Assembly: GCA_046294875.1 (NCBI GenBank)
Contig: JBKBNZ010000001.1
Coordinates: 1 to 47,942 of the forward strand
Origin: Aquificaceae bacterium
GTDB taxonomy: Bacteria > Aquificota > Aquificia > Aquificales > Aquificaceae
Direction of reading: 5' to 3'
DNA: 47,942 bases
In this document: piece after piece, positions 42,386 to 47,942 of the stretch
Layout of the letters: the number at the start of each line of letters is the position of its first letter
How positions within the stretch are numbered: the first letter of the stretch is position 1
Notes under the pieces: model-generated
The model's database searches: none
The model's input: only the letters and a program-made list of their open reading frames with translations
What the model was told of the DNA's origin: nothing
Translations under genes and position numbers: made by a program

Positions 42386-43671
42386 TGAAAAAACATCTTG
42401 TAATACTGGGTGCCCAATGGGGCGATGAAGGAAAGGGGAAGATAGTAGACCTTTTGTCTGCCAACTTTGATGTGGTGGTAAGATACCAAGGTGGTAGCAA
42501 CGCAGGGCATACAGTGGTAGTAAAGGGAGAAAAGTTTATCCTTCACCTTTTGCCTACGGGCATTCTTCACCAGCACACCATAGGCGTAGTGGCTCAGGGT
42601 ATGGTGGTAGACCTTGAACTTTTGGTAAGGGAAATAGAAGACCTTGAAGGTAAAGGGTTAAGGGTTTGGGATAGGGTCTTTGTAAGCGATAGGGCTCACC
42701 TTGTAATGCCTTATCATAAGGTCCTTGACTCTCTTTTTGAAAGGAAGGGGAAGATAGGCACCACCTTGAGGGGTATAGGTCCCTCCTATATGTTTAAGTA
42801 CGGAAGAAAGGGCCTTAGGGTCTGCGACCTTGAGGACAAGGATAGAGCTTACCAGATCATGAAGGACAACATGGAGTTTGTACAAAGCCTTTGTGAGAAG
42901 GTGTATTGTGAAAATCATTCTCTTGACCTTGAGGAAACCTTTGAAAAGACTATGGAAAATTACAAAAAGATAAGGGATAGAGTGATAGATACCACACGGT
43001 GGCTTTTAAACTTTGAAGGAAGAGTGCTTTTTGAGGGGGCTCAAGGCACCATGCTGGACGTGGATATGGGCACCTATCCTTATGTAACCTCCTCCAACGC
43101 CTCCGCTTTGGGCTTGTCCTCTGGTACGGGACTGCCTCCTAAATACTTCTCGGAGGCAAGCTTTTGGGCTGTGTCAAAGGCCTATACTACAAGGGTGGGT
43201 GAAGGTCCCTTTCCCACGGAGTTAAAAGACGAATTGGGAGAAAGGCTAAGGGAAAAGGGTGGAGAGTACGGAGCAACCACCGGAAGGCCAAGAAGGTGTG
43301 GATGGCTTGACCTACCAGCTTTAAAGCATGCCGTGGATATAAACGGCTTGGACGCCCTTATCATCACCAAGCTTGACGTTTTAGATAGCTTTGAGGAGAT
43401 AAAGGTGTGTGTGGCTTATGAGTATGAGGAAAAGACCTTTGATTATTTCCCAGCAAGCTTAAGCCTTTTGGAGAGGTTAAAGCCCGTGTATAAAAGCTTT
43501 AAAGGATGGCTAAAGGACACAAAGGGTGCAAAAAGCCTATCCCAACTTCCAAAAGAAGCCCTTGACTATATAGATTTTATACAAGACTATTTAGGTGTGC
43601 CCATTGTAATGTTATCCACAGGTCCCCAAAGGGATGAGTTTTTCTGGTTGGAGGCCCAAAGCTTGGTTTAG
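42385..43671 (+). CDS. purA: adenylosuccinate synthetase
   Basis: QWGDEGKGK, GGSNAGHT, EGAQG, GTYPYVTSS, GATTGRPRRCGW. Start ATG 42385 overlaps the hflX stop. Confidence 0.98.
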   Translation: MKKHLVILGAQWGDEGKGKIVDLLSANFDVVVRYQGGSNAGHTVVVKGEKFILHLLPTGILHQHTIGVVAQGMVVDLELLVREIEDLEGKGLRVWDRVFVSDRAHLVMPYHKVLDSLFERKGKIGTTLRGIGPSYMFKYGRKGLRVCDLEDKDRAYQIMKDNMEFVQSLCEKVYCENHSLDLEETFEKTMENYKKIRDRVIDTTRWLLNFEGRVLFEGAQGTMLDVDMGTYPYVTSSNASALGLSSGTGLPPKYFSEASFWAVSKAYTTRVGEGPFPTELKDELGERLREKGGEYGATTGRPRRCGWLDLPALKHAVDINGLDALIITKLDVLDSFEEIKVCVAYEYEEKTFDYFPASLSLLERLKPVYKSFKGWLKDTKGAKSLSQLPKEALDYIDFIQDYLGVPIVMLSTGPQRDEFFWLEAQSLV

Positions 43672-43672
43672 G

Positions 43673-44419
43673 TCAAGGGCTGTTGAACCTTCCAAAAGCC
43701 AGTTTATAGAGAAAGACAAATATACCTGCAAGAGAGTGTAGGAAGCTTATAGCGTAACCTGTGGGCAGATCAAAAAGAAAGGAAAAGCTTACCGCCAAAA
43801 GGTTTATAAAAGAGCCAAAAACCCAAGCAAAAGCAAGCCCCCTTCCCAAAAGCAAAGAAACCAACGCGGGAGAAACCAAAAGGGAAAAAACCACCAAAAC
43901 GCCCACCAACTTTACAGAACTGGCAAGGGTAAAAGAAAAAAGCACGAAGAAGGCAAGGTCTTGAAAAAAGCCTTTAAGGTATTTTCTGAGATAAAGTAAA
44001 AGGCCTATAAGGCTGTAGGTGAGGGCAGTACTTATAACTTCTTGCTTTTCCACAAAGAGGATGTCGCTGGCGGTTATCTTTTTTAGCTCCTCCATGCCAA
44101 AAGCAGAAAAGGACAGGATAAGCACGGTTAAAGAAAAGCCAAGGGAGTACAAAAGACCTATAAAGGCTTCTGTATATTCCTTTATCCTCTGAGATAGGGC
44201 GATAAGAAGACTTGCCAAAAGGGCAAAGCTAAGGGAAAAAAGGTAAATATACTTCCCATGAAAGAAAAGAAGAGAGAGGGCTATACCCACTCCGGAAAAT
44301 TGAGCTACCGCAATGTCGGTAAAGATGATTCCCCTTTTTACTATCTCCCTTCCAAAGTAGGCATGGATGCCAACCAACACCACAGAAAGCAAAAGACTTT
44401 TAACAAAAAGGTCTATCAC
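43673..44419 (-). CDS. metal (Zn/Mn/Ni/Co) ABC-type permease, ZnuB/ABC-3 family
   Basis: Highly hydrophobic. HAYFG...RGIIFTDIAVAQ, EAFIGLLY, VKLVGVLVVFSLLVSPA. Confidence 0.88.
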   Translation of the reverse strand: MIDLFVKSLLLSVVLVGIHAYFGREIVKRGIIFTDIAVAQFSGVGIALSLLFFHGKYIYLFSLSFALLASLLIALSQRIKEYTEAFIGLLYSLGFSLTVLILSFSAFGMEELKKITASDILFVEKQEVISTALTYSLIGLLLYLRKYLKGFFQDLAFFVLFSFTLASSVKLVGVLVVFSLLVSPALVSLLLGRGLAFAWVFGSFINLLAVSFSFLFDLPTGYAISFLHSLAGIFVFLYKLAFGRFNSP

Positions 44420-45288
44420 TGGGAAAGCCTCCTTAGGATTTCGTCAAAAAGGTCAAAGAGGTTTTTTACACCTTCTACGCCCACATCGTGAGGAAGGACA
44501 ATAGCCCTTGCACCTATGACCTTGGCAAAATTGTTTGCAGGTTTTGGGTCTCTAAAAACCTCATAAACCACAAACTTGGCTCCTTTGGCTACTTTTGATA
44601 TTTCTTCTAAATGTCTGGCGGTGGGTGGTATACCAGGAAGGGGTTCCAAGGTGCCCACCACTTGTATGCCATAGCGTTTAAAAAGGTAATCGTAGGTTTT
44701 GTGATATTGTACCACCTTTAGGCCCCTTAGCTTAGAAAAACCCTCATCCCACTCCTTTAGCTTTTGATCCCACTTCTTTAAAAAGTCTTCAAGCCTTGAG
44801 GTGTAATATCCACAGTTTGTCTGGTCTAATTCGCACATCCTTTCCTTTATAGCCTTTGCCAATATGGGTATGTGGTGAGGGTTTAGATGATAATGAGGGT
44901 TGCCCTCTGGATGTACGTCGCCCATCTCCCTTGAAACTATAGCGGGCTTATCTATCAGATCTATAAAGTTTGAAAGGTCCAAAAAGCCTTTTCTACCGGG
45001 CTGTATTTTAGGGTTGTTGGATTGCTGTATCAAGGGTGGCAGAAAGCCTATTTCAAGACTTGCTCCATTTATAATAAGCAGGTCGGCGTTTCTGAGCCTT
45101 GCTATGTGGGAAGGCCTTGGCACCACAAAGTGAAAGTCCTCTGTGGGCTTTGCTATAACATAAAGGCTTATCTTTTCCCCTCCCACCTCCTTTGCCAACT
45201 CACCTATCCAAGGGTAGGTGGCAGCAACTCTAAGCTGGGCAAAGGAAATGGAAAGGCTAAGAAGTAGTAACATCATTAACTTTTTCAT
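44416..45288 (-). CDS. metal ABC transporter substrate-binding protein (ZnuA/TroA cluster A-I)
   Basis: Signal peptide, DFHFVVPRPS, GDVHPEGNPHY, YHKTYDY, EPLPGIPPTARH. Confidence 0.93.
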   Translation of the reverse strand: MKKLMMLLLLSLSISFAQLRVAATYPWIGELAKEVGGEKISLYVIAKPTEDFHFVVPRPSHIARLRNADLLIINGASLEIGFLPPLIQQSNNPKIQPGRKGFLDLSNFIDLIDKPAIVSREMGDVHPEGNPHYHLNPHHIPILAKAIKERMCELDQTNCGYYTSRLEDFLKKWDQKLKEWDEGFSKLRGLKVVQYHKTYDYLFKRYGIQVVGTLEPLPGIPPTARHLEEISKVAKGAKFVVYEVFRDPKPANNFAKVIGARAIVLPHDVGVEGVKNLFDLFDEILRRLSQ

Positions 45289-45454
45289 GTCTTTTCCTCC
45301 TTAAAAGTTTTTTTGTGCCTATGTAAAGGGCAAGTCCCACCACGCTGGCGGATGATCCAAGGCAGGCAGGACATTGGCCGCATCCACAAGAAAGCATATA
45401 AAGAAAGCCCCCCGAGGAGGGCAAAAGGGGCAAAAGTTTGTATATGCCCTTCAT
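45257..45454 (-). CDS. small Cys-rich membrane protein (CGCGQCPAC)
   Basis: Fills the gap between porin and binding-protein genes. Strong SD GAGGAGG, C-x-C-x2-C-x2-C cluster, hydrophobic segment, basic tail. Confidence 0.65.
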   Translation of the reverse strand: MKGIYKLLPLLPSSGGFLYMLSCGCGQCPACLGSSASVVGLALYIGTKKLLRRKRHEKVNDVTTS

Positions 45455-45464
45455 ACCTTCCTCC

Positions 45465-46850
45465 TCAGAAGGGATGGGCTCCGTGAGCTCCTATGGCAAA
45501 GGTAAATTGGAGTATCACCTCGTTTATGGTTTTTCTTTTTCCTTTTTCATAATAGGCTCTGTTTTGGCCTGCCTGCAACCTTATGCGGGAAAACTCGGTA
45601 GGGTTGTATTCCACCATGGCATAGTAGGCGGGTAGGTTCTTGGGAAGATTTTTATCGGTTATATCATTTTTGTTGATGAGGTTGTACTGGATTCCTGCCC
45701 TCCACCTTTGGTCAAGCCTTGCCACCAGCTGGGTATAAAAACCGCCCTGTTTTTTTCTGATATTTTCAGTTTCAAGGGTACTTCCATCTAACTCATACTT
45801 TGTACCCTTTTGGTCTCTGTATATATACTCTCCTTGGAAGGCTATGTACTTTGTGGCATCAAGGGAGTATCTGGCTGTTAGGTCAAAGCCGTAAAGCTTG
45901 GTCTTTCCTGCAAAGGCATGCTCTTCATGGTCTATCCTTGTCTTCCCTTGGGCATAAGAAAACCCCGTAAGCACGGAAAGGTTACCTATGTCAAAGGATG
46001 TTTTTACAAAGCCCACGTAAAGGTTGGGCTTGCGAGTTTCTGGCACTTTTACACCGCCTATCTCAAAGCCATCTATTCCAAAGCTCTGTTCGTTTTCTCC
46101 TTGCAACACTTCCGCACCAAGCAGAAGGTAAAAGGGCGTTGGGGCAAGCCAGTTTATCTGGATTCCCTTTTCTGTAAGGCCTTCGCCAAGGAAAACCTTA
46201 TAGATAAGGGGCTGGTTGGCAAAGTCCCAAGTATGGGGGTGTTGGGCGTTTAACCTTCCAAAGCCGCTTCTAAACTTTCCTACCTTTAGCTGGAAGCCAA
46301 AGGGCAGGCCTCGGGTAACCGCATAAGCCTCTTCTACCTCCGCACCTTCTTCTGTAAAGGGTATGGTGGCATAAAGGTCAAAGTACGGGTCTACGGGAGC
46401 ATAGAAGTACAGCTCTGCGTAGTTCAGGTTAAAGCCCCTTTTCTCGTTTAACTCACCATGTCCGTGTCCATGTCCGTTTTCGTGTTTGTGATAAAGGCCG
46501 GGAATTTTAAGGTGGCTAAACTCTTCATCCTTTATATTTCTTCCCACAAGGGATGTATCCACTATGAGGGATATGTCGGGTAAAAAGGCGGTTTGTCTAA
46601 AGGTACCAATCTGCATAGCCTTAAGCCTTTCATCAAACTTAGACCTTAGCTGAAGGCTTCTGTCCATGGGTTGGCTCTTTTGAGCTTCTTCCTTTACTTG
46701 CTCTTTTTGGGCTTTTTCTAAGCTTTGTATCTTCTTTTCAAGCTCTTGTATAAGCTTTCTTTGTTCCTCAAGCTGACGTTTTAGGTCTTCAAGGCTTTCT
46801 TGGGCAAAGGAAAGGCTAAATATTCCTAAAAGAAGGGCAATTTTCCTCAT
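45465..46850 (-). CDS. His-rich outer-membrane beta-barrel metal channel/receptor
   Basis: Signal peptide, N-terminal coiled coil, PDISL, HKHENGHGHGH loop, VEEAY, GRLNAQHPH, EFSRIRLQ, C-terminal GAHGAHPF. Confidence 0.85.
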   Translation of the reverse strand: MRKIALLLGIFSLSFAQESLEDLKRQLEEQRKLIQELEKKIQSLEKAQKEQVKEEAQKSQPMDRSLQLRSKFDERLKAMQIGTFRQTAFLPDISLIVDTSLVGRNIKDEEFSHLKIPGLYHKHENGHGHGHGELNEKRGFNLNYAELYFYAPVDPYFDLYATIPFTEEGAEVEEAYAVTRGLPFGFQLKVGKFRSGFGRLNAQHPHTWDFANQPLIYKVFLGEGLTEKGIQINWLAPTPFYLLLGAEVLQGENEQSFGIDGFEIGGVKVPETRKPNLYVGFVKTSFDIGNLSVLTGFSYAQGKTRIDHEEHAFAGKTKLYGFDLTARYSLDATKYIAFQGEYIYRDQKGTKYELDGSTLETENIRKKQGGFYTQLVARLDQRWRAGIQYNLINKNDITDKNLPKNLPAYYAMVEYNPTEFSRIRLQAGQNRAYYEKGKRKTINEVILQFTFAIGAHGAHPF

Positions 46851-46861
46851 CTTTATACCTC

Positions 46862-47200
46862 CTATAGTGTTATTACTTGTTCTACGCCAAGCTGTTTTGC
46901 TTTGCCGTATAGGTTAGGAAAGCATCCTATGGTGGCGCCTTCCACCAATTTGTCTGCTATGTTCCTCTCATAACAACATTGATCGCATCCCATCAAAAAG
47001 CCTATCTTTCCCTCTTTTAAAAGCTTTGAAAGCCTTTCTCCTATGGGATTTCCCTTTACAAGCACGTAGTTGTTGTCCAAGAGAAAAAACATACCAATCA
47101 CCTCAACAGGGTGAGCGTCGTTTTCAAGCTGGGGAAGTATCATCCTCCCCAGTATGTAACTGGCGGAGTTAGGACTGCTAAATATGTATAAAACCTTCAT
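46862..47200 (-). CDS. DsrE-fold protein (SaoD-like)
   Basis: MKVLYIF, YILGRMILPQLE, GMFF-x2-DN, CDQC, GCFP, VITL end. ATG 47200 with GGAGG SD 8 nt upstream. Confidence 0.8.
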   Translation of the reverse strand: MKVLYIFSSPNSASYILGRMILPQLENDAHPVEVIGMFFLLDNNYVLVKGNPIGERLSKLLKEGKIGFLMGCDQCCYERNIADKLVEGATIGCFPNLYGKAKQLGVEQVITL

Positions 47201-47203
47201 GGC

Positions 47204-47264
47204 AAACACCTCCTGTAGTTTTTTGAGAAAAAAGTCCGTAGCTTTTAGGCTACAGGAGGCGCTC
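47204..47264 (-). promoter_or_regulatory. SD-sequestering helix / translational attenuator
   Basis: Minus-strand GAGCGCCUCCUGUAG (47264-47250, RAPPV codons) pairs over 15 bp (3 G-U) with CUACAGGAGGUGUUU (47218-47204, contains the SD). Confidence 0.8.
47228..47257 (-). terminator. intrinsic terminator-like hairpin overlapping the leader stop codon
   Basis: Minus strand UCC(U)GUAGC-cuaaaa-GCUACGGA followed by C-UUUUUU. Confidence 0.55.
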
Positions 47265-47511
47265 GGTTGTGGGTGGTCTTTGGTAGGGGTTTATAAAAAG
47301 GCTGATGGGGTTTTTGGGTTTTTTCTACACAAAGGTAAAAAAAGGAGATTTTGAGAGAGATTTTGGCAGAGGGTTTGTCTATTTGGCTATGCTGTAATAT
47401 ACATAAGGAGCAGTCTATGTGTAGCTGGAGGTCTTCGTGATGGTGCTCTGCATGGGCAAAATCCACAAACAGGAGCAGAAGGCCTACCAGCAGGTGAAAA
47501 AGCCGCCTCAT
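47245..47511 (-). CDS. DUF2946/CruR-like exported leader peptide with His/CxxC sensor and C-terminal RAPP arrest motif
   Basis: Signal peptide ending AHA, EHHHEDLQLHIDCSLC, Pro/Lys-rich linker, terminal HNRAPPVA, first ORF of a metal-uptake operon. Confidence 0.85.
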   Translation of the reverse strand: MRRLFHLLVGLLLLFVDFAHAEHHHEDLQLHIDCSLCILQHSQIDKPSAKISLKISFFYLCVEKTQKPHQPFYKPLPKTTHNRAPPVA

Positions 47512-47528
47512 TATGAGATCTAATTTTA

Positions 47529-47732
47529 TTATTTTTTCGGATTTAAATCAAGCTTTCCTTTTAAAATCCCCATGCCACCAAAGAGAATACCAAAGCCCAA
47601 AAGCATAAGAGTTTGTGGCTCTTCAATCCTTATGATCCTATACCTGTCTTCTTGTGTAAAGGGTACTTCTTTGGATGTTGATATACCATAGAAGCTTAGC
47701 AGTGCTATTACTAACAAAAACAGCTTTCTATT
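47529..47732 (-). pseudogene. remnant of a signal peptide + coiled-coil + TM gene family (KEVPFTQEDR...LMLxGFGILFGGMGIL)
   Basis: Signal-like RKLFLLVIALL with no start codon (AAT AGA in place of ATG AGA). Very short spacer before the TM segment and an abrupt end. Confidence 0.5.
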
Positions 47733-47942
47733 GGGAGGTTCTTGAACCACCCTACAAGAACAATATGCGACCGGTGCTTTATGACCTAACCTGTGAGAAT
47801 AGCCCAACGATTGTCCCGTTAAAAAAAACATTGGACGAAATTTAACCATGTAGTTGTAAAAGCAATCCGTGAATTGTCCAGAAAATCATTAGGTGATCCT
47901 TGAAACCTCTACAAGGGGGTTTTTCACTCGGCGTATGAAGTT

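What the first reader, a model, noticed from the sequence alone, without database searches (positions are those of the whole stretch)
47245..47511. Candidate metal-sensing ribosome-arrest leader peptide (signal peptide - HHH/CxxC - linker - RAPP)
Seen: 88 aa with a Sec signal ending A-H-A (19-21), then EHHHEDLQLHIDCSLC (C34, C37), a ~45-residue linker and R83-A-P-P86 two codons before the stop. Established: RAPP/RAGP motifs stall ribosomes (ApdA/ApdP, SecM-like), and the DUF2946 uORF CruR (CxxC + RAPP) mediates copper control of a TonB-dependent transporter in Bordetella. Inference: the linker lets the His/Cys site reach the translocon or periplasm while RAPP sits in the peptidyl transferase centre, so metal binding releases the stall and shuts off uptake. 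The cargo genes point to Zn/Ni/Co rather than Cu. The predicted mature N-terminus E-H-H would also be an ATCUN-type Ni/Cu site, which is relevant for a hydrogenase-dependent organism. This would extend the mechanism to a deep-branching thermophile and possibly a new metal.
Basis: partly seen in the sequence, partly recalled or inferred. Interest (0 to 1): 0.87.

Follow-up and report, generated by a model that had tools for sequence, protein, structure and literature searches.

The report
Ribosome-stalling leader gating zinc-type import
A small conserved leader gene in hot-spring bacteria ends in a known ribosome-stalling motif whose codons are predicted to pair with and hide the start signal of a metal-import operon, so it likely switches uptake, probably of zinc, on when the metal is scarce, much as known copper-sensing leader peptides do.

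Summary
The 88-aa ORF is real and as described. Homologs occur in 63 of 178 Aquificota genomes. 62 of 64 copies end in RAPP, RSPP or RGPP, 44-47 residues after CxxC, the spacing of CruR and CutF. The conserved metal site is HxHxDx3HxDCxxC. The signal-cleavage site, and so the ATCUN idea, is not conserved (11 of 60).

The Pro-Pro codons (CCT CCT in 46 of 62; about 8 of 58 expected) form an anti-Shine-Dalgarno helix with the next gene's AGGAGG, and the flanks show compensatory changes. A stalled ribosome would therefore unmask the ribosome-binding site. Homologs outside Aquificales mostly lack this helix.

The cargo is a SaoD-like protein, a porin, a three-His ZnuA-type binding protein and a permease. 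The homologous Vibrio operon has Zur boxes instead of a leader, so zinc is likeliest.

It works like CruR/CutF but fails the DUF2946 Pfam cut-off. Stalling and metal sensing are untested. This scan reported similar zinc-type RAPP leaders, including the anti-SD idea, on other DNA.

Verdict: new variant of a known kind.

The parts
47523..47551 (-). Promoter-like site TTGATT-17-TAAAAT, ending 11 nt before the uORF ATG; the uORF is probably near-leaderless
   Evidence: 9 of 12 match; 6 such sites found vs 5.0 in shuffles, so weak alone. In homologs a -10 hexamer lies 5-14 nt before the ATG in 38 of 61 and an SD in 2 of 61; genome control 141 and 245 of 652
47245..47511 (-). 88-aa leader peptide (uORF): hydrophobic N-terminus, His/Asp/Cys site, linker of fixed length, RAPP
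47449..47511 (-). Signal peptide or signal anchor, residues 1-21; cleavage site not conserved
   Evidence: hydrophobic core in 60 of 60, AxA in 11 of 60
47401..47445 (-). Putative metal site H23-x-H25-x-D27-x3-H31-x-D33-C34-x2-C37
   Evidence: H23, H25, D27, H31, C34, C37 invariant and D33 nearly invariant in 58 sequences; full motif in 60 of 62 and in 95 of 136 distant representatives
47254..47265 (-). RAPP arrest motif (codons CGA GCG CCT CCT)
   Evidence: R[AGS]PP in 62 of 64 copies: RAPP 43, RSPP 16, RGPP 3
47250..47264 (-). 5' arm of the regulatory helix (anti-Shine-Dalgarno; core CCTCCT = Pro85-Pro86 codons, 47259-47254)
   Evidence: fold -29.3 kcal/mol, z -3.78, 0 of 200 shuffles as good; covariation
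47204..47218 (-). 3' arm of the helix, containing the SD AGGAGG (47214-47209) of the first cargo gene
   Evidence: SD unpaired probability 0.001-0.006 when free, 0.47-0.66 with a ribosome-sized mask over the Pro codons (37-80 C)
46862..47200 (-). SaoD/DsrE-like protein, 112 aa from the ATG at 47200; an optional first cargo gene
   Evidence: NF040732 145.9 bits and NF040913 143.2 bits, both under their cut-offs of 169 and 152; first gene behind the leader in 19 of 62 loci
45465..46850 (-). His-rich outer-membrane beta-barrel (omr-type); porin-like fold, not a TonB-dependent receptor
   Evidence: [quoted passage not shown]
44416..45288 (-). ZnuA-family substrate-binding protein with three His ligands (H53, H132, H196)
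   Evidence: PF01297 E 3.9e-40; H196 aligns with the Glu of the Mn-binding PsaA motif TSEGAF
43673..44419 (-). ABC-3 (ZnuB-like) permease; no ATPase gene next to it
   Evidence: PF00950 E 4.5e-13

Best explanation
[quoted passage not shown] Shown here: the ORF, its motifs, the fixed spacing, the complementarity and its compensatory changes, and the import-type cargo. Inferred step 1: when metal is scarce the ribosome stalls with Pro85 in the P site and Pro86 in the A site, as measured for CruR. It sits on the CCUCCU arm, frees AGGAGG, and the import genes are translated. Inferred step 2: when metal is plentiful it binds the nascent HxHxDx3HxDCxxC segment, 48-62 residues from the P site, outside the tunnel or at the periplasmic mouth of SecY. 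Folding or pulling then releases the stall, the ribosome terminates two codons later, and the helix closes over the SD. Inferred step 3: the untranslated, C-rich and G-poor message is probably then cut short by Rho, which would spread the shut-off to genes with their own SD. My odds per step: real peptide-coding uORF 0.97, arrest 0.9, control through the anti-SD helix 0.85, metal sensing 0.8, zinc given metal about 0.7.
For: Peptide-level selection on RAPP: all six Arg codons are used, and Ser codons of both boxes. Distant homologs keep Pro-Pro with 15 different codon pairs. Spacing is 44-47 in 61 of 61 complete Aquificales copies and 42-47 in 119 of 136 distant representatives, against 45 in CruR (PMC9426467) and CutF (bioRxiv 10.1101/2022.11.11.516240). 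The linker sequence is free (top-residue share 0.31 vs 0.93 for RAPP). RNA-level selection: CCT CCT in 46 of 62, against 7.8 of 58 expected from neighbouring genes and 4% of Pro-Pro pairs in the own genome; 5-6 of the 6 Pro-Pro bases pair with the RBS zone in 56 of 62. Flank positions form 136 of 248 Watson-Crick pairs in register vs 61-82 when slid by 1-3. One-per-genus resampling over 14 genera gave 30.7 vs 18.0, with the null reaching the observed value in 0.16% of draws; within-genus permutation reached it in 1 of 5000. All four pair types occur at three flank positions. The helix is kept in front of three different first genes: saoD-like 19, omr 38, TonB receptor 5. Zinc: three-His binding protein. 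The homologous omr-znuA2-znuB2 operon of Vibrio campbellii (27-35% identity) has two GTTA-N5-TAAC Zur-type boxes upstream, a pattern found in 1 of 61 Aquificales leaders. An operon of the same names in V. parahaemolyticus is induced 283-1034-fold by zinc limitation (PMC9817125, table passage). Rho is present. C minus G in the last 78 nt of the uORF is 24, higher than at any of 707 other gene ends.
Against: No experiment: stalling, metal binding and regulation are all inferred, and RAPP needs upstream context to arrest. The helix is not perfect everywhere: 3 of 62 loci pair none of the Pro-Pro bases with the RBS zone, three related copies use CCA CCA, and outside Aquificales 43 of 45 pair none (start sites there were picked roughly). 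With the SaoD-like gene in first place, as here, the helix controls that gene directly, and omr has its own strong SD, so control of the import genes needs coupling or polarity, which is unshown. The closest solved relatives of the binding protein by score are Mn-binding PsaA chains. The link from the V. campbellii locus to the tested V. parahaemolyticus genes rests on names and gene order, not on a sequence comparison. Kin are not independent, so the covariation figures overstate somewhat. Part of the C excess comes from Pro, His and Thr codons.
Confidence: 0.6

Rival explanations
1. Same switch, different metal: the leader senses Ni, Co, Mn, Fe or Cu.
For: CxxC is the copper site of CruR (PMC9426467). 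His-only CutF-like clusters lie before HupE/UreJ Ni/Co genes (bioRxiv 10.1101/2022.11.11.516240, passage). The top PDB sequence hits of the binding protein are Mn-type. The TonB receptor behind 5 copies has no assignable substrate. The genome has a second ZnuA-family gene.
Against: The binding protein has His, not Glu, at the third ligand. The Vibrio counterpart carries Zur-type boxes. No copper genes appear among the recurring downstream families. The ATCUN-creating cleavage site holds in only 11 of 60.
Confidence: 0.2
2. The output is mainly transcriptional, as for CruR: release of the stall exposes a rut site for Rho (or lets a terminator hairpin form), and the anti-SD helix is secondary.
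For: C exceeds G in the last 78 nt in 60 of 62 Aquificales copies and 46 of 46 outside copies. Rho is present. Outside Aquificales the helix is missing. A terminator-like hairpin covers 47255-47236 here.
Against: Codon choice and flank covariation show selection on the helix. The intergenic distance is short, 39-68 nt in 59 of 62, against 162 nt for cruR. The terminator-like hairpin is found in only 1 of 62 loci, or 3 of 62 with longer loops allowed.
Confidence: 0.12
3. The leader does not sense metal but monitors secretion or thiol redox (SecM/ApdA-like pulling, or a C34-C37 disulfide), and the cargo is incidental.
For: Hydrophobic N-terminus in 60 of 60. RAPP leaders are known secretion monitors (PMC10987492, passages), and some lie before thioredoxin/DsbA genes (PMC12992588, passages). 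The optional first gene is a Cys-containing DsrE-like protein.
Against: Three His and one Asp are as invariant as the cysteines. The cargo is metal import in all lineages examined, and no sec or yidC gene is among the recurring downstream families.
Confidence: 0.06
4. It is a small secreted metal-binding protein, and Pro-Pro is a by-product of an RNA hairpin; no stalling occurs.
For: CCTCCT is an anti-SD whatever the frame; no direct evidence of arrest.
Against: Arg is kept through six codons. Pro-Pro is kept where no helix exists. The linker is fixed in length but not in sequence. RAPP-like motifs are strongly avoided in ordinary proteins (PMC12992588, passages).
Confidence: 0.02

Closest known systems
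CruR (Bp2923, DUF2946/PF11162) of Bordetella pertussis (PMC9426467, parts 1-4 of 7 read; arrest and toeprint in PMC12992588, passages)
   Same: First gene of a metal-import operon; export signal, CxxC, 45-residue spacer, RAPP a few residues before the stop; C>G bubble at the 3' end; predicted logic: stall = ON, metal releases = OFF.
   Different: 88 vs 145 aa; extra invariant His/Asp cluster; no PF11162 hit over the cut-off; 44-nt rather than 162-nt intergenic region; output through an anti-SD helix; cargo zinc-type, not copper-type; CruR does not need its signal peptide (untested here).
CutF of Rhodobacter capsulatus (bioRxiv 10.1101/2022.11.11.516240, passages; 10.1101/2025.02.05.636593, abstract and introduction)
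   Same: Sec signal, Cys metal site 45 residues before a proline-rich stall motif, and a stem-loop that hides the next gene's ribosome-binding site and is opened by the stalled ribosome.
   Different: CutF has CxxxC and is stalled BY copper to induce a detoxifying oxidase. Here the cargo is import, so the sign is predicted to be opposite. In cutF-cutO the stem-loop is described as separating the two genes; here the arrest codons are themselves the anti-SD arm.
SecM/secA and ApdA/ApdP-type RAPP/RAGP monitors (PMC10987492, passages)
   Same: Signal peptide plus C-terminal RAPP-like arrest motif; the stalled ribosome unmasks a sequestered SD.
   Different: They sense translocation force and control sec or yidC genes; they have no His/Cys site at a fixed distance.
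[quoted passage not shown] 4B source table of PMC12992588
   Same: Same pairing of a His/CxxC-RAPP uORF with an omr-named gene: 9 of the 26 rows containing 'zinc' in the part of the file held; one uORF there is annotated DUF2946.
   Different: The word 'zinc' does not occur in that paper's main text, so no zinc-sensing claim or test is made there; no RNA helix analysis seen in the passages read.
DUF2607/ZrgD (PF10795), first gene of the Zur-repressed zrg zinc operon of Vibrio (PMC9817125, passages)
   Same: Small first gene of a zinc-uptake operon; weak similarity, 5 of 58 homologs hit PF10795, best E 0.0065; neighbouring Atlas cluster at 0.91.
   Different: Described as of unknown function and under Zur control; its sequence was not examined here.

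Membership tests
DUF2946 (PF11162; CruR/CutF family) | Score over the Pfam gathering cut-off (23.7 bits) | tested here: not met
   No hit for the peptide at E<=1; 0 of 178 genomes over the cut-off, best 19.3 bits; 9 of 58 homologs hit weakly, best E 4.3e-4
DUF2946 (PF11162; CruR/CutF family) | CxxC motif | tested here: met
   C34/C37 invariant in 58 sequences
DUF2946 (PF11162; CruR/CutF family) | C-terminal RAPP motif | tested here: met
   R[AGS]PP in 62 of 64 copies
DUF2946 (PF11162; CruR/CutF family) | CxxC-RAPP spacing of about 45 residues | tested here: met
   45 here; 44-47 in 61 of 61 complete copies
DUF2946 (PF11162; CruR/CutF family) | N-terminal export signal | tested here: inconclusive
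   Hydrophobic core in 60 of 60, K/R in the first 6 residues in 54 of 60, cleavage site not conserved; no predictor available
CutF-like proteins (rule set of bioRxiv 10.1101/2022.11.11.516240) | Under 150 aa, PP within the last 15 residues, same-strand downstream gene within 1,000 nt | tested here: met
   88 aa, PP at 85-86, next gene 44 nt downstream
CruR-type copper-responsive uORF | Heads copper-homeostasis genes | tested here: not met
   Cargo is omr porin, ZnuA-family binding protein, ABC-3 permease, or a TonB receptor with ExbBD-TonB
CruR-type copper-responsive uORF | Metal-dependent release of arrest | not testable with these tools
   needs a reporter or toeprint
CruR-type copper-responsive uORF | Rho-dependent termination behind the uORF | tested here: inconclusive
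   Rho gene present and C>G bubble present, but function untested and a covarying anti-SD helix exists
RAPP ribosome-arrest peptides (ApdA/ApdP/SecM-like) | Elongation arrest with the two prolines in the P and A sites | not testable with these tools
   motif and position fit; no ribosome data available
RAPP ribosome-arrest peptides (ApdA/ApdP/SecM-like) | Stall site overlaps a structure that hides the downstream SD | tested here: met
   (prediction plus covariation)
ATCUN motif | Free N-terminus with His at position 3 after signal cleavage | tested here: inconclusive
   Possible in this copy if cleavage is after A21, but AxA is present in only 11 of 60 homologs
DUF2607 (PF10795, ZrgD) | Pfam match | tested here: not met
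   No hit for the peptide; 5 of 58 homologs hit weakly, best E 0.0065

The most novel reading that the evidence does not exclude
Across Aquificales, including the cultured Aquifex aeolicus, a near-leaderless 88-codon gene is the main zinc sensor of a porin-ZnuA2-ZnuB2 importer, doing the job that Zur boxes do for the same operon in Vibrio. Its two arrest-site proline codons encode the stall and are at the same time the anti-Shine-Dalgarno arm, so one hexamer is under both peptide and RNA selection. The same leader family appears to use Rho-type output in other phyla. This would be a zinc-sensing arrest peptide with a portable sensor and a lineage-specific output.
Probability: 0.45. Interest if true: 0.72.

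Novelty: new variant of a known kind. Interest (0 to 1): 0.52.

Why it matters
In the papers found, metal sensing by a nascent arrest peptide has been shown for copper only (CruR, CutF), and the CruR paper notes that no riboswitch is known for Cu or Zn. A compact 88-aa leader with an invariant His3-Asp-Cys2 site and a 65-nt RNA switch is a small system in which to test three open points: whether this mechanism extends to zinc, which ligands set the metal specificity, and whether sensing happens in the cytoplasm or at the periplasmic mouth of SecY. The covarying helix gives exact synonymous mutations that separate the RNA role of the Pro-Pro codons from the peptide role. The general class, and RAPP leaders in front of omr-named genes, are already in print or in published source tables, which caps the surprise.

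Tried and rejected
Searches that found nothing:
- Pfam and NCBIfam give no meaningful hit for the peptide.
- PF11162 finds no match in the own genome and none over the cut-off in 178 genomes.
- No PDB relative of the leader profile or of the TonB receptor found behind five copies.
- No Rfam family in 43500-47942, so no known riboswitch.
- No RNA holder was listed for the stretch; this is no evidence on expression.
- Look-ups of earlier scan notes by sequence and by place showed nothing.

Runs that did not work:
- A single-sequence fold of the outer-membrane protein failed (pLDDT 35); the alignment-based fold worked.
- The leader alignment was too divergent to scan genome contigs directly, so distant loci were reached through the outer-membrane protein, which finds only leaders in front of that gene.
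- In one search the SD was misregistered in 4 loci; searches use corrected registers.

Ideas rejected:
- A conserved intrinsic terminator (1-3 of 62).
- A Zur/Fur box at the leader (1 and 0 of 61). The second pattern is a recalled consensus and Aquificales operators are unknown, so this is weak. Two Fur-family genes exist and were not assigned.
- The outer-membrane protein as a TonB-dependent receptor (porin folds).
- The 106-aa ORF at 47529-47849 as part of the system: it overlaps the promoter-like site and was not assigned.

Literature: seven searches found no paper testing zinc sensing by a RAPP leader or describing the Aquificales case; the library lacks most subscription papers. Supplements: for PMC12992588, file 8 was cut, file 10 was not searched, four files were too large, and the table has no organism names, so Aquificota members may be listed there unseen. 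For PMC9973294 only 8,054 characters were held, with no hit.

Full report
Observation. The minus-strand ORF 47511-47245 encodes the 88-residue peptide as described: hydrophobic N-terminus, A19-H20-A21, E22-HHH-E-D-x3-H31-x-D33-C34-x2-C37, 45 residues, R83-A-P-P86, V, A, stop. Downstream on the same strand lie a SaoD/DsrE-like gene (ATG at 47200), a 461-aa His-rich protein, a ZnuA-family binding protein and an ABC-3 permease. Among 9,460 open frames of 50 aa or more in the genome, three end in R[AGS]PP and only this one has this layout. Homologs named by their sources are from Aquificaceae.

Conservation. A 10-sequence profile found 64 places in 63 of 178 genomes of the phylum: 41 of 89 other genomes of the own family, 21 of 50 of a second family, and none in three other families. 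I examined all 64. Sixty-two have R[AGS]PP in the extracted frame (43 RAPP, 16 RSPP, 3 RGPP); two are broken before it (L021, L070), and one more is cut by a contig end. In the 61 complete copies the CxxC-RAPP distance is 44-47. In 58 aligned copies only H23, H25, D27, H31, C34, C37, R83, P85 and P86 are invariant; the linker is free in sequence. Of 136 distant representatives, 135 have CxxC and 119 an RxPP-type end, at spacing 42-47. Arginine is encoded by all six codons, so the motif is selected as peptide.

The RNA switch. [quoted passage not shown] Since AGGAGG is the ordinary SD, I tested whether the pairing is selected. (a) Codon choice: CCT CCT in 46 of 62 copies, against 7.8 of 58 expected from neighbouring genes, 24 of 591 Pro-Pro pairs in the genome, and 36% CCT at other prolines of the same leaders. 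(b) Flanks: the four bases after Pro-Pro pair Watson-Crick with the four before the SD in 136 of 248 cells, against 61-82 when slid by 1-3 positions. One-per-genus resampling gave 30.7 vs 18.0 (null at or above observed in 0.16%), and nine different perfectly complementary trinucleotide pairs occur. Within-genus permutation reached the observed value once in 5000, and the third base of the Ala/Ser codon switches from A-U (42 copies) to U-A (6 copies in 2 genera) together with the base after the SD. Relatedness inflates these figures, but the slid and within-genus controls limit that. (c) The helix persists before three different first genes: saoD-like 19, outer-membrane protein 38, TonB receptor with ExbB-ExbD-TonB 5. 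(d) Masking a ribosome-sized stretch around Pro85 raises the SD's unpaired probability from 0.006 or less to 0.47-0.66 at 37-80 C. Exceptions: 3 of 62 loci show no Pro-Pro pairing to the RBS zone and 3 more pair only 2-4 bases. A terminator-like hairpin in this genome is not conserved. The leader itself usually lacks an SD (2 of 61) and often has a -10 hexamer 5-14 nt before its ATG (38 of 61; control 141 of 652), so it is probably near-leaderless, or coupled to an upstream stop (16 of 61).

Beyond Aquificales. Of 79 loci found with the outer-membrane protein (best 80 of 572 kept), I examined 57 not titled as Aquificales plus three others. Forty-six of the 57 have an upstream xAPP-ending ORF, mostly with CxxC at 44-46 (Campylobacterota, Nitrospirota, Chlorobiaceae, Ignavibacteriae and others). 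There CCT CCT occurs in 9 of 46, and 43 of 45 show no pairing to the RBS zone, while C exceeds G at the 3' end in 46 of 46 (start sites there are rough). So the sensor is widespread and the anti-SD output is, in this sample, an Aquificales trait. This also serves as a negative control for the folding test. A C>G bubble is present in Aquificales too (60 of 62; here more extreme than at 707 other gene ends) and Rho is encoded, so polarity may add to the translational switch. That would be needed here, since omr has its own SD overlapping the saoD stop.

Which metal. The 461-aa protein folds as a porin-like barrel. It is 27% identical to a Vibrio campbellii protein heading an omr-znuA2-znuB2 operon; the other two genes are 35% and 30% identical. 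[quoted passage not shown] The Vibrio operon has two GTTA-N5-TAAC boxes upstream (motif from PMC4176598, passages), and the ORF list shows no leader gene there. Genes of the same names in V. parahaemolyticus are in the Zur regulon and strongly induced by zinc limitation (PMC9817125, passages); a ZnuA-subfamily protein of that species supports growth under zinc depletion through conserved histidines (PMC3794297, passages). I did not compare those sequences directly. The window's binding protein has His196 where Mn-binding PsaA has Glu; the rule that three His mark zinc binders is from PMC3794297 and my recall. SaoD homologs outside the SAO system are reported to sit beside metal-import ABC genes such as AztC (bioRxiv 10.1101/2022.07.06.499078, passages). 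Zinc is therefore the best guess, not a result. Nothing pointed to nickel.

Mechanism. With Pro85 in the P site, as toeprinted for CruR (PMC12992588, passage), C37 is 48 and H23 62 residues from the peptidyl transferase centre. CruR, however, regulates without its signal peptide (PMC9426467), so cytoplasmic sensing is equally open. Because the cargo is import and the stalled state opens the SD, metal should release the stall (the CruR sign), while the output resembles CutF and SecM (an SD hidden in a stem-loop).

Membership and novelty. It works like CruR/CutF and meets their motif, spacing and position rules, but fails the PF11162 cut-off and lacks copper cargo. I file it as a DUF2946-like leader, not a member; the Atlas places it nearest to unnamed clusters, then DUF2946 and DUF2607 clusters. 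RAPP leaders before TonB-type and metal genes are published as a class, and 9 rows of a source table pair such leaders with omr-named genes. My searches found no test of zinc sensing and no account of the Aquificales helix. An identical copy of one homolog is on record for Aquifex aeolicus (WP_164930817.1). Earlier notes of this scan describe zinc-type RAPP leaders, some with the same anti-SD reading, in other genomes. I read them after finding and testing the helix; they are unchecked and not counted as support.

Verdict. Observation confirmed; interpretation partly supported and extended by a covarying anti-SD switch. New variant of a known kind; interest 0.52.

Noticed in passing
window 45257-45454 (-): 65-aa ORF between the porin and binding-protein genes with CGCGxCPAC followed by a hydrophobic stretch; found by tblastn in 12 other loci of the 61 searched, all from the window's genus; no Pfam or NCBIfam hit. 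Possibly a small Cys-rich metal-binding membrane peptide.
   Followed up: partly
window 47236-47255 (-): Intrinsic-terminator-like hairpin plus U-run over the leader's last codons and stop; competes with the anti-SD helix in this genome but is not conserved.
   Followed up: yes
L112:3200-4010: An Aquificaceae locus where saoD-omr follows what looks like the end of a secD gene (recognised by eye) with no leader ORF between them: an apparent natural loss of the leader.
   Followed up: partly
L078, L087-L090: In one genus the leader, with its helix, heads a 790-aa TonB-dependent receptor with ExbB, ExbD and TonB instead of the porin operon; substrate unknown.
   Followed up: partly
L092:2507-2863, L134, L141, L156: Leaders of the same operon in Sulfurovum and one other record with HAPP, TAPP or LAPP and a much longer CxxC spacing (69-70 where counted), which break the 45-residue rule.
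   Followed up: no
window 43673-46850: The importer has a binding protein and a permease but no adjacent ABC ATPase gene, here or among the recurring families downstream in relatives; the protein annotated elsewhere as a TonB-dependent receptor folds as a porin.
   Followed up: partly
L121, L122: omr homologs in gammaproteobacterial records lack the leader; in L122 the upstream sequence looks like the end of a Fur-family gene (seen by eye), suggesting repressor control instead.
   Followed up: no
window 47529-47849 (-): 106-aa ORF directly upstream of the leader, overlapping its promoter-like site; similar ORFs in two close relatives; weak PEP-CTERM hit under the cut-off; real start and function unclear.
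   Followed up: no
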